A DNA stretch of 64,000 bases from Eledone cirrhosa (lineage: Eukaryota): the NCBI GenBank assembly GCA_964016885.1, contig OZ024741.1, forward strand, positions 348,006,001 through 348,070,000. The letters run 5' to 3'. A program made the position numbers and the translations under genes. This document shows, one piece after another, positions 2,419 through 51,033 of this stretch (positions are counted from its first letter, which is position 1; each line of letters starts with the position of its first letter). The notes below the pieces were generated by a model that worked only from the letters and a program-made list of their open reading frames with translations, did not search any database and had not been told where the DNA came from.

Positions 2419-2460
2419 AACAAAGTTCTTTCGTTGCACATCTGCAACATCGTCAGTGAT
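2419..2460 (-). ncRNA. Type I hammerhead ribozyme motif (PLE 3' region)
   Basis: Minus strand: ATCA-CTGACGA-T-GTTGCA-gatg-TGCAAC-GAAA-GAAC-TT-TGTT. Core intact, 6 bp helix II, weak helix I. Confidence 0.75.
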
Positions 2461-2739
2461 GCTATTATGTTTCCTCCTGTTGTATTGTATGCCTACGCCA
2501 TCTTTATTTAGTATGTTTATTTATTTATTTTTTTGTCTTCTCGTCGCATGCGTTTGCGTGTGTGTATAGTGTTTGATGTGTGTTCGTGTTTGGGTGACTG
2601 TGTATTGGTTATTGTATTATATCTTAGTTTACTAGTTTGTGTTTATATGTGTTTGTTGTTATTGTGCTTGTGTATATATTTATTTATTTATTTATACTTC
2701 TCTTAGGTCAGTATTGTTTGTTTGGATGTTGTTGTTATT

Positions 2740-3603
2740 TCATTCATTTTTTCTGTTTAGGCTTGGCCTTCTAAGTTCTATCTCGCTGTCTTCTCTGATT
2801 TGTCCATCTGCTGGGTCATTTCTATGTTTAGATATTATTCTAATTTCTATATTGTCTATGTTACCGTTGTGTTGTTGTCTGGCATGCTCGTATAGTACTG
2901 AACCGTTTTTTCGTCCTTTTAGTTCCCCCCAGTGTTGGTCTATCCTTTCACCTATGCTACGAGCTGTCTCGCCTATGTATGTTGTTGTCATGTTTCTGCA
3001 AGTACCCTCTGTACATATTATGCTATAGACTACGTTTCTAGTTTCACAGTTTATCTGGGGGTTTACATTACATATAATACATTTCCTATTAGTACAGTCG
3101 GTTTTCTTAAAAGGGTATGTTTTGCTGACCAGGGATTTTATGGTGATTCCTGGCTTTTCTATCACCTTAATATTTAAGTGGGTCTTTCTCAGGGCCTTTC
3201 TACACTGGTTAGCTAATTTCCCTCCTGGGGTAGCGTCCACAAACATGACACTCTTGTATCTCTGGTTGTCGTACCATGAGGTGTCTTTCCCTATCTTATG
3301 TCTAGTCCTATCTAATCTATTCCATGATTTGCTCCTGTATAATGGGCAAATTCCTTTCATGTCCAGTTCTATGAGGGTCTTATACTTCTCCGTCGCTCCT
3401 TCGTATACTCTGATTCTGTCTCTTTGGTTGTAGCCAGAGAACTGCATGCGGTTGATGAAGTGTTGGATGCGTCTTTCCATTTCTGTTGGGTCGCACATGT
3501 GGGACACGTTCTTCATCACTTGTACCAAGTCTGCGATCAAAATATTAAACTTAGCACTACAGGACATTGCTGAGATTTTGAGTATCAGGTATTTGGAAGC
3601 CAT
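2740..3603 (-). pseudogene. PLE thumb/linker + GIY-YIG endonuclease fragment
   Basis: Motifs FVDATPGG, VIEKPG, VVY..YIGET.R, IRE..EI, PSLN in the ORF track. Confidence 0.85.
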
Positions 3604-5193
3604 GGAATTAGCGTAGTGTGAGTGGAAAATGTGTGCTCTCCCGTCTATAGTGTTAATCCAGAGTTCCGTGTCTAATACAAGTAGTCTATTGTTAGGATGT
3701 TTGGAAGGGTAGTCGATAGTTAGTTATACTCTGGTATATGGGATTAGCTATCTGCTGGATGCTTTTCATCGTGCTACGTTCTAAATCAAACTTGTTAGTA
3801 CTCTCTTGTGGGGATGTCCTTATTACTATATTGATGTCGTCTACGTAACGAGAGTACATTATGAAGTCTATGGAGCTCTCATCAAGGAGATCTCCTTTCC
3901 CACCATACCATAAAAAGGTTGGCAACGTCACCAGCTATGGTGTCGCCAATGGCTGCTCCCTCATTTTTGGGTGTAGATCTTTTGGTTGAATTTGAATATG
4001 TGGCCCTTTAGGATAGATTTGATACTAGCCACTATTGCATGTGCGATCATTTTTTTACCTGATCATTATTTTGGGGGTCCGTATAGCTTTGGTCCACACA
4101 ATCCACCTTCCCATGAGAGTCTTATTAACCATTGAGGTTATGGTGGGGGGTCTACATCTTATGGGTCTACTGGGGCAGAAACGTCTAAGGTCATGGCTGT
4201 CTAGGTAATCAGTGTCATAGGTAAGTCTAAGTAGGAGGCCCAGTTCTTCTGTTTCGACGTCGCAGAACTTCACCTCACTCTCAATGATCATCTCCACACA
4301 TTTTTCCACAGCAAAATCAATGTTAATGGATGGGTACAGTGACACCACATCCATACTGCATATTATGCAGTTGGATAGGTTCCTGTTTTTGTTGCACTCA
4401 CTGATTCTGCTGAGGAGGTCCTCTGTACTGTCACATACATCTGGGGACATCTTGATTATGGGGCGTATAACCATTGAGAGGAAGTAAGAGATCCTGTAGT
4501 TGCTAGCTATATTTGCTCTGAAAACAGGTCTTGTTGGTGGCCCTGTTGTCGGGTCGTCGACTGTCTTATGGTCTTAGCGGAGCCCATACAAGGGTGGTAT
4601 GCCGTTGTTAGACGCCTGGAAGTTGTTGGCAGTGCGTCTGCTTGGTTTTAGGATGTCGGTCCACATCATCATGTGAGCGTTGAGGATTTTCTCTCTCCCA
4701 TCATGTATTTGCTGTGCAATTTCGCTCGTGTTGGTGATGTGGGGTTGCATAGCCGTGATGTAGTTCGGCATGCTGTCTATTGACATCATACTAGACTTAT
4801 CCGTGGATAGACATACTACCTCACCATCACTTGTTTGCTGCTTGAGACTAACCAAGCCTTCAACAGGTTTCATCCCCGGTTGTTGGACCTCTGGTCTGCT
4901 TTGTCTATTAGTATACCGGTATACTATTTGTCTAATCTTATTTCTAGCTATGGTGAACTGTGCCTCTGTGTCGTCATCTATTTGTTGTCAAATAGATGAC
5001 GAGACAGAAGAACAGATCCTGCCTAGAGCTGATCGTCGGAGAAACATATGTAATATGTTAATAAATTGTGTTTTGATGCATTACTGATTGCTCGTTATAT
5101 ATGTATGTAAAATATAAACATAAATAACAACACAATCGATATAGTAAATGGAAGGGATATATTAGGTTAATGCTTGATATAACAAGAAGCGGG

Positions 5194-5229
5194 TATTAAC
5201 GTTTCGGACAGCAGTCCTTCATCAGAAGA
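5194..5229 (-). ncRNA. Minimal type I hammerhead motif
   Basis: Minus strand: TCTT-CTGATGA-A-GGAC-tgct-GTCC-GAAAC-GTT-AATA. The direct-repeat partner at ~6161-6282 reads TATT-CTGAGGA, which would restore helix I (TATT/AATA). Confidence 0.7.
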
Positions 5230-48258: not shown

Positions 48259-48359
48259 ATTGTCTCCTGATGAAGCCAACGTAGTATCACAGTTTTCGGC
48301 CAGTTACAAATTGCACTTATTGTAACTTATCGGCAGAAACCCGGTTCCAGAGGTACAAT
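48259..48359 (+). ncRNA. Type I hammerhead motif
   Basis: ATTGTCTC-CTGATGA-A-GCC...GGC-A-GAAA-CCCGGT-TC-caGAGgtACAAT; helix I is imperfect. Confidence 0.6.
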
Positions 48360-48528
48360 TGTAAACCTCACATTACGAATATAAACTTGTTTGCACTCTG
48401 ATACTTGTTTTCCTCATTGAGTTAGCTAATTTGAGCCATCGGGATTATAGCTAATACTATGCCTCGTCAGTGTATATATATATATATATATATATATATA
48501 TATATATATATATATATATATATATATA

Positions 48529-49210
48529 TACAAGTTAATATAAATTAATATATATGATAAAACACAAATACCAACATATAAGTGTTTGTATTGTAAATGA
48601 CTAAGTTAGCTAGATTGAAAAATACTAATTATAATAATACAGTTTGCCTGTCTCGATTTAAAATAATAAATCAATAAAAACAAACGATATTGGCAAATGG
48701 CCGTGGTACTTAGACAAATTTAAATTTCAAAATCAAACTTGTTCCGTAGATAAGTTTAAATTTCAAAATCCAAATAAGTTTCTGGAAAACCATGTGCGTT
48801 AAACAATCTTTTTAAATATTTTGAAGTGAAACATACCAATTGTTCAGGGTACTTACTGAGGAGAGCTGAACGGGGTATTTTTTCACTTTTTCATCTCGAA
48901 ACTTATTTGGATTTTGAAGTTTAAACTTGTCTGCGGAACAGGTTTGATTTTGAAATTTAAATTTGTCTAAGTACCACGGCCATTTGCCAATATCGTTTGT
49001 TTTTATTGATTTATTATAATTAGTATTTACAGGCAAACTGTATTATTATAATTAGTATTTTTCAATCTAGCTAACTTAGTCATTTACAATACAAACACTT
49101 ATATGTTGGTATTTGTGTTTTATCATATATATTAATTTATATTAACTTGTATTACACGGCTCAGAAATACTTGTAAAGGACTGCTTGAGTTTAGAACTCA
49201 TTATTCTTAG
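48529..49210. mobile_element. Fold-back TA-flanked element (family of 12467-13258)
   Basis: Arms 48529-48782 and 48898-49151; CTGAGGA-GAG...CTC-GAAAC at ~48856-48902. Confidence 0.85.
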
Positions 49211-50976
49211 TATATATATATATATATATATATATATATATATATATATATATATATATATATATATATATATATATATATATATATATACATAAATATA
49301 TATATATATATATATATACATATATATATATATATATATATAATGCTTTAATAATGGAATATTTAGAGTATATGGAAATATTGTTAATGAAAGTCACACG
49401 ATATCATTGGTATTTTTAGAACACGTAGGTTTTTAAATTACATTTCCTTATTATCTTTCTTATAGGGAGGAGAAGATATGTTGCTAATTATCGACTCTGA
49501 CTAATGTTAACTAAAAATATGGGGATAGCATTTATTGTCTGGGAAGCATACCATTAATTCTAGTCGCGTATGATAGCCATCTATCCGAGTTTGAATTCTC
49601 TGAAAATCTAAATGCATTACATTTATGTCTGGATTGACATTAAATCATACTGCAGTATGTTAATTGGCAGAGTGATTAGAGCACTTAATGTTATTTGTTC
49701 TGGCTCTTTACAAGTTGATTTGACGTGTACACTGAGGTAAACATTCTGTTTGATCATTACGATGTCCATAAAATAAAATAGGTTTGTAGGCATTGGATAG
49801 ATGAGATGGAAGTGAGAAGGTATCATAGATTGGGACTCATTTTTGTATGCTTACATCAGACTGTATGTAAATGGAAAATTAGGTAAGCTGACCGTGCTAG
49901 GCTGGTGTGATTCAAAAATTTACCACAAATTGCTTGAACGAACATCATGAAGTATAATATATTTTTCCTAAGTTTCTCTCACTGTGTCGCTCTCTCCCGG
50001 GCGCTCGGATAGTTCAGCCTTCCTTGAGTGCTTGGAAAAATAAATTTACCCTCTTTCAGTAAACGAAATTACTCGGAGCGTCTCGCTTCGCTCCGGGGCC
50101 CGCCGTGCCGCCTGTTATGACCGCCATATTATACATATAAACACTAGGCCTAAGCATGACTATTAGCTGTATCATGCCTCCTTCTACTGGCATGTAAATA
50201 AACCACTCCTGTGTGAATTAATAGTATTCGTTTGGTATAGACGATGGCCTGTCAAAAATGGTAGACTTCCCGCTAGCACACCCGAAGCCTAAAGCAGTTA
50301 CGTTCCTAGAGTACTCGGAAAAATTAATTTTCATTTAATTCGCTAGACGATACCACTTGCAACTGGCTGACACGTGGTTAGGGGGTGCTGGCTGGGATTT
50401 ACGATCGAGGGCTTTAATTTTTACTCTATATCCCACCCTGATAATTTATCGAGATTCTCTATAATACACTTAAACATTTTCATATAAGATTCTCTCTGTA
50501 ATTTTCTTAAATAAATCTCGCAACCCAAACCTCTAAGTTTTAATATTTTTTTTTTATTTTTTTATTTTTAATTTCTTAATTTTTTTATTTTTTTATTTAA
50601 TTTCATCCTATAACACTAAACATATGTTTAACGTTCCAATTTTCTGTTCACACATTATACCATATAGACGCCTACTATATATGCCTCTGTCAAGATATTG
50701 GTTCTTTGGAATAACATTTTTCGCGACGATTTCTAGCCTGACTGTAGTGTGACCCTTCTTTCTTTCTTTCTTTCTTCCTTTTTTTTCTCTTTGACGGAGA
50801 GGTGGTAGTACATTATAAGCCTTCGCTCCCTCACCAGATGGTCATTAGTAGACCGAGTAGCCATCACTTGAGGGCGACTGACTGGTGTCAAAGCAGCTAG
50901 TTGGTCAATCGTCCTCTTTGTCTTTGATTTTCGGACCAATGGATTTTATCTGTTATGTTCCTTTGTTATATTTCGA

Positions 50977-51033
50977 ATACCTGATGATATCACCGGATTT
51001 ATACGGAACCTGTCATTGAAATGATCATCGTAT
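50977..51033 (+). ncRNA. Type I hammerhead
   Basis: ATAC-CTGATGA-T-ATCAC..GTCAT-T-GAAA-TGATCA-TC-GTAT; palindromic loop III, one mismatch in helix II. Confidence 0.72.

What the first reader, a model, noticed from the sequence alone, without database searches (positions are those of the whole stretch)
2419..51033. At least 12 diverse type I hammerhead ribozymes marking a zoo of TA-targeted non-coding elements
Seen: helix I-CUGANGA-helix II-GAAA-loop-UH-helix I' motifs at 2419, 5194, 5617/5729, 6501/10812, 11461, 12163, 16521, 17879, 18130, 19259/21116, 21743/21977, 48259 and 50977. Helix sequences are unrelated between families, yet loop III is often palindromic (GTAC, AATT, TACGTA, TAATTA, GATC, TGATCA). 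Known: PLEs carry minimal type I HHRs with palindromic loop III that are thought to cleave as dimers (Cervera and de la Pena 2014). Inference: most of the non-coding 0.3-2 kb islands between (TA)n tracts are PLE-mobilised ribozyme elements from many families, at a very high local density.
Basis: partly seen in the sequence, partly recalled or inferred. Interest (0 to 1): 0.8.

Follow-up and report, generated by a model that had tools for sequence, protein, structure and literature searches.

The report
Hammerhead retrozymes with Penelope integration footprint
The hammerhead-ribozyme motifs are real and mark the ends of many TA-targeting Penelope-like retrotransposons and of protein-less repeats that carry the same two-armed insertion footprint, which likely means the retrotransposon enzyme copies both kinds of RNA from both cut ends of the target.

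Summary
All 17 listed sites are minimal type I hammerhead (HHR) motifs or mutated copies of them, in 13 families; three more families were missed. Intact motifs exceed shuffles (7 vs mean 0.5).

Two claims need correcting. First, the density is not local: 400 kb sampled across the genome holds about 48 motifs, roughly 340,000 genome-wide. Second, most families are not non-coding: seven (probably eight) are 3' ends of protein-coding Penelope-like elements (PLEs), four with Hydra-clade motifs. Four (units of 591, 542, 536 and 2063 nt) are ORF-less tandem HHR repeats, i.e. retrozyme-like.

Both kinds insert in (TA)n as two inverted arms and have two fixed 3' ends, short (S) and tailed (L). 78 of 81 two-armed insertions are S+L. 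The two arms share rare alleles, stop at different 5' positions and join nearly flush, and none stops at the HHR cut site. This is the known PLE tail signature, seen here on retrozymes.

Likely mechanism: a PLE enzyme primes at two sites on one uncleaved or circular RNA, from both target ends. Cleavage, expression and circles are untested; no RNA run was listed.

The parts
2174..4987 (-). Family A: decayed coding PLE (ORF pieces 2740-4987) with HHR at 2419-2466
5096..5339 (-). Family B: 3' end with minimal HHR at 5190-5232; coding or non-coding origin unresolved; partial second copy 6161-6280
5460..5882 (.). Family C: two-armed palindromic insertion (L arm left, S arm right), HHRs 5617-5655 (-) and 5729-5767 (+); PLE endonuclease lies upstream in longer copies
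5905..6010 (-). Family X (missed by reader): HHR whose helix II is deleted in this copy, present in relatives
6319..10964 (.). Family D: coding PLE with Hydra-type motifs, two inverted arms, tail on the left arm; U3-A8 HHRs 6500-6602 (-) and 10811-10913 (+)
10972..11623 (+). Family E: ORF-less 591-nt tandem unit (1.1 copies, S end), U3-A8 HHR 11461-11548; copies about 99.5% alike
11713..12410 (.). Family F: ORF-less 542-nt tandem unit, rearranged copy, HHR 12163-12244 (+)
12469..13265 (.). Family N, diverged variant (missed by reader): two-armed insertion with HHR-like core near 12762 (-)
13310..13500 (.). Family O (missed by reader): young two-armed insertion, both arms cut inside a predicted U3-A8 HHR with a 5-bp helix III; related piece at 51108-51248
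16381..16850 (-). Family G: 3' end of a coding PLE, variant HHR 16519-16612
17155..18030 (+). Family H: PLE GIY-YIG domain plus 3' UTR with HHR 17877-17915
18069..19140 (.). Family I: two-armed insertion (long S arm, 44-nt L arm) of the 3' end of a 6.5-kb coding Hydra-type PLE; HHR 18130-18284 (-)
19213..21311 (.). Family J: two-armed insertion (S left, L right) of the 3' UTR of a coding PLE; HHRs near 19259 (-) and 21116 (+)
21577..22083 (.). Family K: two-armed insertion (L left, S right), HHRs 21742-21794 (-) and 21977-22029 (+); probably a PLE 3' UTR
22138..23719 (.). Two-armed fragment of a coding PLE between TA tracts; no HHR found
48070..48472 (+). Family L: old family (31 candidates), HHR 48259-48350; origin unresolved
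48531..49210 (.). Family N (missed by reader): ORF-less 536-nt tandem unit, two-armed S+L insertion, HHR-like motif 48851-48909 (+)
49342..51107 (+). Family M: without PLE homology, 2063-nt period in one locus, HHR 50977-51033; left boundary approximate

Best explanation
The window is an ordinary piece of a genome filled with TA-targeting Penelope-like retrotransposons and protein-less HHR repeats (retrozyme-like) that share one insertion footprint, likely because PLE enzymes insert both. Shown: each family examined genome-wide sits 5' of a TA junction in the sense of its HHR; eight have two fixed 3' ends, S and L (tail about 45-165 nt); two-armed insertions pair one S with one L; arms and tandem units of one insertion share rare alleles; arm 5' ends differ and avoid the HHR cut site. 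Inferred: the GIY-YIG domain cuts both strands of (TA)n; two RT sites, perhaps of a dimer, prime at S and at L on the same RNA; both make same-polarity cDNA, which is end-joined into a head-to-head insert. The template is likely a circle (made by HHR cleavage, as a dimer where loop III is palindromic, then ligation) or an uncleaved multimer. Single-armed inserts would be events where only one priming survived. My odds: PLE-type HHRs 0.9; PLE mobilisation of E, F, N, M 0.85; two primings from the two target ends 0.7; same RNA molecule 0.5; circular template 0.45.
For: Coding ends: A, D, H have ORFs in the window; I (18 of 20 unshifted copies open to the locus end); G and J run into full ORFs; C has the endonuclease upstream in 2 of 4 long copies tested. 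Hydra motifs DKT, CxCX5C and CxxC..E..CxH are in I, G, J and, as far as its ORF pieces reach, D (against PMC8557442 section 11). E, F, N, M: tandem periods and 0 hits to 129 protein probes. S+L: 68 of 70 in seven families, 10 of 10 in I. Minor alleles shared by both arms beat permutation in E, F, C, N (0 of 1000) and M (13 of 1000). In I, opposite arms and tandem units differ by 0.11% vs 1.06% between insertions. Arm 5' ends lie within 10 nt of each other in 2 of 36; 0 of 72 lie within 5 nt of the cut site; most junctions are within 5 nt of flush. Family A: 91% of cells paired, 22 cells with double changes, 0 of 500 shuffles reach it. Both E ends recur as TA loose ends in an independent run. 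A PLE cuts and extends both strands and starts RT at two sites bounding the tail in vitro (PMC11167929).
Against: No cleavage, RNA or circle was shown. Only 4 of 13 window motifs fold into helices I and II as their minimum-energy structure, none with a strong z-score. Exceptions: 2 S+S, 1 L+L. Allele sharing is not significant in K (156 of 1000), and whole-arm divergence is only slightly lower within than between insertions (higher in M). Across families 103 shared minor alleles sit in one arm only vs 47 in both. Sharing could also come from one source locus or from conversion between arms. I found no sequence link between E, F, N, M and a particular coding PLE, so the partner is unknown. In one search, two of five measures were not above shuffles, and relatedness inflates the others. 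Searches returned only the 40 best copies per family, biased towards the window copy.
Confidence: 0.7

Rival explanations
1. Same PLE mobilisation, but the HHR plays no part in the cycle: templates are uncleaved read-through transcripts, and the two arms come from two RNAs of one active source locus, first nick using S and second nick using L.
For: HHR mutants did not affect insertion in vitro and unprocessed RNA was the main substrate (PMC11167929). 8 of 9 Xenopus retrozyme dimers did not cleave (bioRxiv 10.64898/2026.07.22.740005). 0 of 72 arm ends at the cut site fits any uncleaved template.
Against: Variants found in only one sampled insertion are present in every unit of an array (e.g. 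L006, L022, L029), which needs a one-unit bottleneck. The core and helices are kept, with covariation, in dozens of unrelated families.
Confidence: 0.3
2. The inverted arm is made by fold-back self-priming, as proposed for rotifer Penelopes, or by later inverted duplication.
For: C copies cluster at one palindromic junction and O is a near-perfect palindrome; PMC3846280 reads such junctions as self-priming.
Against: In E, F and N the arms end at different places in 34 of 36 insertions, and either arm may be the longer one. A copy of an S arm cannot gain a tail. The middle base of the C junction is random relative to S, as expected for two strands annealing at a short palindrome.
Confidence: 0.1
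3. The ORF-less units are solo PLE terminal repeats amplified locally as minisatellites by unequal crossover, not retrotransposed.
For: Scenario discussed in bioRxiv 10.64898/2026.07.22.740005; units are tandem.
Against: Copies are dispersed over many chromosomes (1325, 2363, 2270, 1493 first-look candidates), in arrays of 1-3 units per arm, each with precise S or L ends in new TA tracts and ragged 5' ends.
Confidence: 0.04
4. Chance motifs in AT-rich DNA, or assembly artefacts for the inverted arms.
For: No Rfam hit; a few descriptor hits in A-rich satellites are false.
Against: Shuffle controls, 3' polarity to TA (39 of 44), covariation, arms diverged by up to 6%, and S and L junctions in independent contigs.
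Confidence: 0.01

Closest known systems
Minimal HHRs of metazoan PLE pseudo-LTRs (Cervera and de la Pena 2014, PMC4209133)
   Same: Type I, short helix I, unpaired base before helix II, palindromic loop III, U3-A8 variant, many families per genome, pairs on opposite strands 100-700 bp apart.
   Different: Helix II domains up to 115 nt; estimated number far above the 4,000-9,000 reported there for coelacanth and Xenopus (descriptors differ).
Hydra-clade PLEs (Craig et al. 2021, PMC8557442)
   Same: C-terminal GIY-YIG, DKT, CxCX5C linker, CxxC and CxH around E/N, HHR, (TA)n insertion, tandem and inverted copies with a tail at one end.
   Different: RWR instead of RWK; family I is 6.5 kb with a 3-kb microsatellite-filled UTR (reported: mostly under 3 kb); tails about 45-165 nt instead of 30-40; very abundant here. 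No tree was built.
Metazoan non-LTR retrozymes (Cervera and de la Pena 2020, PMC7229834; Li et al. 2026 preprint)
   Same: ORF-less tandem units with one type I HHR each, GC under 50%, coexisting with PLEs.
   Different: Units 536-2063 nt (reported 150-450, up to 972); PLE-type rather than canonical HHRs; short dispersed two-armed arrays in (TA)n with the tail signature, which I did not find in the parts of those papers that I read; circular RNA not shown here.
Poseidon PAc of Anolis (Frangieh et al. 2024, PMC11167929)
   Same: Two internal RT start sites bounding the tail; AT-rich target; both strands cut and extended; predicted dimer.
   Different: That work does not tie one start site to each end of an insertion; here the pairing is near-obligate and extends to protein-less RNAs.

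Membership tests
Type I hammerhead ribozyme (PLE minimal type) | CUGANGA (or U3-A8) + GAAA + UH core with helices I and II | tested here: met
   family G has an 8-nt first core and is a variant
Type I hammerhead ribozyme (PLE minimal type) | Covariation of helices and core | tested here: met
   (family A relatives, 3 pairs with double changes); C3-G8 vs U3-A8 in motifs with the same helices I and III (D vs L341). Young families are too uniform to test.
Type I hammerhead ribozyme (PLE minimal type) | Palindromic loop III allowing a dimer | tested here: inconclusive
   perfect in 8 of 12 loops folded; not in A, G, J, N; 21 of 53 in the genome sample
Type I hammerhead ribozyme (PLE minimal type) | Self-cleavage | not testable with these tools
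   needs in vitro transcription
Rfam Hammerhead models | Covariance-model match | tested here: not met
   none at E<=1
EN+ Penelope-like element (A, C, D, G, H, I, J) | RT plus C-terminal GIY-YIG ORF upstream of the HHR repeat | tested here: met
   for C and H only the endonuclease end was seen; Pfam recognised only the GIY-YIG of H among 8 PLE pieces
EN+ Penelope-like element | Tandem and inverted insertions with a tail at one end | tested here: met
Hydra clade (D, G, I, J) | DKT, CxCX5C, CxxC/CxH, RWK-like motif, TA target | tested here: met
   RWR in place of RWK
Hydra clade (D, G, I, J) | Placement in the RT tree | not tested
   no reference set of named clades at hand
Non-LTR retrozyme (E, F, N, M) | ORF-less tandem unit with one type I HHR per unit | tested here: met
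   M's period seen in one locus only
Non-LTR retrozyme (E, F, N, M) | Expressed as circular RNA | not testable with these tools
   no RNA run listed
Non-LTR retrozyme (E, F, N, M) | Highly self-paired unit | tested here: inconclusive
   z -6.9, -4.3, -2.7, but 3 of 14 random pieces reach -6.7 or lower
Non-LTR retrozyme (E, F, N, M) | Homology to the terminal repeat of a coding PLE | tested here: inconclusive
   none noticed in about 370 loci; no genome-wide search was left for it

The most novel reading that the evidence does not exclude
PLEs integrate by paired priming: a dimeric enzyme holds both ends of a cut (TA)n and starts two cDNAs at two fixed sites on one circular RNA, which explains tails, inverted arms and uniform tandems in one step. 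Viroid-like HHR circles hijack this machine, and this genome, with some 340,000 intact hammerheads from dozens of families and both partners still young, is the densest ribozyme genome I could find described.
Probability: 0.35. Interest if true: 0.82.

Novelty: new variant of a known kind. Interest (0 to 1): 0.57.

Why it matters
Two questions are called open in the papers read: how PLEs form tandem and inverted insertions (PMC8557442), and which enzyme mobilises animal retrozymes (PMC7229834; the 2026 preprint argues from homology and co-occurrence). Here protein-less HHR repeats carry the PLE footprint itself, and the near-fixed pairing of one short and one tailed end with shared alleles constrains the mechanism. 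Very young families (E and O, 99-100% alike) and a coding family with open frames (I) give ready reagents. The scale suggests that minimal hammerheads are a major, unannotated repeat class in this genome.

Tried and rejected
Rfam scan: no HHR; only TA-repeat matches to miRNA models and three weak unrelated ones.

My first strict descriptor found 1 motif and was too tight.

Programmed frameshift in family I: the three copies first read shared a shift at an A-run, but it is in 10 of 30 copies fetched with a query that carries it, on several haplotypes. Rejected as recurrent slippage.

First S/L count misread internal sites as ends (56 S+L, 17 S+S, 16 L+L); redone with a continuation filter, and used only for family I. 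First arm-identity test overshot the arms; redone.

Circular folding energy did not separate the units from controls.

No RNA holder listed. In two runs of unknown library type, E forms one closed contig that goes back 591 nt, while F was partly laid in one and not in the other. A collapsed DNA tandem gives the same picture, so I draw nothing from it.

Pfam missed the PLE RTs. The protein search gave 1313 relatives; the few names among the 120 listed were 'hypothetical' or gene codes. Earlier findings: none.

A, D, H, X and O had no genome search of their own and were judged from copies met in other loci. B, L, X and O stay unclassified.
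Full report
Setting. The window lies at G000:C2:348006001-348070000 in an unnamed 3.0-Gb genome of 1796 contigs. Its TA richness and repeats recall octopod genomes; that is recollection, not a test. Between about 28.5 and 44 kb and beyond 56 kb lie ordinary LINEs, which are not part of this finding.

Observation. I read each listed site and scanned with a descriptor: helix I, CUGANGA or UUGANAA, helix II domain up to 130 nt, GAAA, loop of 2-8 nt, UH. Eight of the 17 sites pass. 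With helix I of at least 4 bp there are 7, against a mean of 0.48 (max 2) in 25 block shuffles; with a palindromic loop there are 6 against 0. The other nine are mutated or variant copies whose relatives show the motif. Family A relatives covary in helices I and II, and D and a relative swap U3-A8 for C3-G8 between identical helices I and III. Rfam does not see these motifs.

Density. Forty 10-kb stretches at preset round positions gave 76 hits. That fell to 53 after dropping local repeats and 48 after trimming two satellites by hand; shuffles gave 0-4. This is 7.7-8.5 per 64 kb, the same as the window, and extrapolates to about 340,000 intact motifs (bootstrap 190,000-500,000), in 37 helix/loop classes within the sample, a few of them false. 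The nearest TA tract is closer on the 3' side in 39 of 44 motifs with a tract on both sides. Published counts with other descriptors: 126,247 in axolotl, over 6,000 in Acropora (PMC7229834), about 9,000 in Xenopus (PMC4209133), 235 Rfam hits in giant squid (PMC6962438).

What the families are. Eleven family searches in the own genome returned 31 to 3562 first-look candidates each, of which at most 40 were scored and 25-30 fetched.

Coding PLE ends: A, D and H have ORFs next to the HHR in the window. I is the end of a 6.5-kb element with RT, GIY-YIG and a 3-kb microsatellite-filled UTR, found in tandems of up to four. G and J lead into full ORFs. C has the endonuclease about 0.5 kb upstream in 2 of 4 long copies. 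K has it 1.25 kb upstream in 1 of 3 long loci. I, G, J and D show the Hydra-clade motifs listed in PMC8557442.

ORF-less tandem units: E 591 nt, F 542, N 536, M 2063, with no hit to 129 protein probes and no clear similarity to each other. B, L, X and O are unresolved. Of 21 islands of 0.3-2.2 kb between TA tracts, 11 hold an HHR and one more a PLE ORF; nine do not.

The footprint. Eight families (E, F, N, M, C, J, K, I) have two fixed 3' junctions with TA: a near one (S) and a far one (L), about 45-165 nt apart. B, G and L showed one main end. Among 180 loci of seven families, 70 distinct insertions had both outer ends recognised: 68 were S+L and 2 were S+S. The other loci were duplicates or showed one end or none. 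One L+L in M, visible, was missed by that rule. Family I adds 10 of 10: eight pairs by coordinates, of which two were read through, and two inside single loci. Total 78 of 81. Caveats: two C insertions share 1.7 kb of flank and are not independent, the C query favoured palindromes, and the end signatures came from the same loci. The four one-armed E insertions are all S. Both E junctions appear as TA loose ends in an independent run.

One template. In E, variants seen in a single sampled insertion occur in both arms and all units. Permuting arms between insertions never reached the observed sharing in E, F, C and N, reached it 13 times in 1000 in M and 156 times in K. Many alleles are in one arm only, as expected from later mutation but also from separate templates. 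In coding family I, units and opposite arms of one insertion differ by 0.11% against 1.06% between insertions (7 vs 428 pairs). In the window, both J arms carry the same core change. Arm 5' ends match each other in 2 of 36 insertions and fall at the predicted cut site in 0 of 72 arms (about 1.4 expected by chance); most junctions are within 5 nt of flush. Arms often run through one to three cut sites. So the template is not a cleaved linear monomer, and the second arm is not a fold-back copy of the first.

Mechanism. Known: a PLE protein cuts AT-rich DNA, extends both strands, starts at two internal RNA sites that bound the tail, and is predicted to be a dimer (PMC11167929). Inferred here: each target end uses one of the two sites, the two same-polarity cDNAs run for different lengths along the same circular or multimeric RNA, and they are end-joined. 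At a short palindrome, as in C, they can anneal and give a perfect palindrome with a random middle base. The HHR would supply the circle, as proposed in PMC4209133; that step has no direct evidence here.

What is known. Minimal HHRs, U3-A8 and opposite-strand pairs are in PMC4209133. TA targeting, inverted copies and a tail often at one end are in PMC8557442 and PMC3846280. Retrozymes and their proposed PLE origin are in PMC7229834 and the 2026 preprint. I did not find the tail or inverted footprint described for retrozymes, a count of S/L pairing, or a cephalopod HHR survey in nine searches. The library lacks most subscription papers.

What I read. Preprint: parts 1-3 of 5 and a word search. 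PMC11167929: parts 1-2 of 4. PMC4209133: parts 1-2 of 4. PMC7229834: parts 2-3 of 6 and passages. PMC8557442: passages and section 11. Passages only: PMC3846280, PMC6962438, PMC6155905. No supplements were read; those of PMC8557442, PMC7229834 and the preprint may show such structures or these species.

Verdict. The motifs are real and their kinds are known. The new part is the PLE integration footprint on ORF-less HHR repeats, its near-obligate S+L pairing with shared alleles, and the genome-wide scale. Interest 0.57; new variant of a known kind.

Noticed in passing
L131, L133, L134 (family I, G000:C1:126.84-126.86 Mb and others): Young coding PLE whose 3-kb 3' UTR is built of TA/CA/TG microsatellites; it spreads TA tracts that may serve as new targets. 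A frameshifted variant fills one whole tandem array, so it was likely moved in trans.
   Followed up: partly
window 13310-13500 and 51108-51248; L097, L067, L171: Family O: copies 99-100% identical, predicted U3-A8 HHR with a 5-bp helix III that might cleave as a monomer; often present only as small palindromes.
   Followed up: partly
window 1-435, 19541-19727, 52914-53635: Very common short repeat of about 200 nt, often in tandem and inserted in the A/T-rich S end of family K; looks like a SINE (recalled, not tested).
   Followed up: no
window 54132-55135: About 1-kb element with 160-nt inverted ends between TA tracts and a broken ORF that looks like a mariner transposase (recalled); a TA-targeted DNA transposon, not an HHR element.
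   Followed up: no
window 45200-46760: Element with internal 37-nt tandem repeats and a duplicated block (45278-45625 / 46086-46460); carries a CUGAUGA on the minus strand but no matching GAAA; unexplained.
   Followed up: no
window 28469-33706, 35114-40876, 40851-44179, 56038-63992: LINE-type elements, including a 1105-aa endonuclease-RT frame at 37292-40609 with an inverted second copy at 56038-59775, and partial tandem copies of two other LINEs.
   Followed up: no
window 16455-16461 (- strand), family G: A second conserved CUGA(U/G)GA lies downstream of the variant G motif in most copies, with no clear partner GAAA; G may use another fold.
   Followed up: no
window 23800-26047, 47380-47973, 51274-52099: TA-flanked islands with no HHR, no PLE homology and no match in about 360 fetched loci.
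   Followed up: partly
L343, L351: Short tandem satellites that match the U3-A8 descriptor many times; treated as false hits.
   Followed up: no
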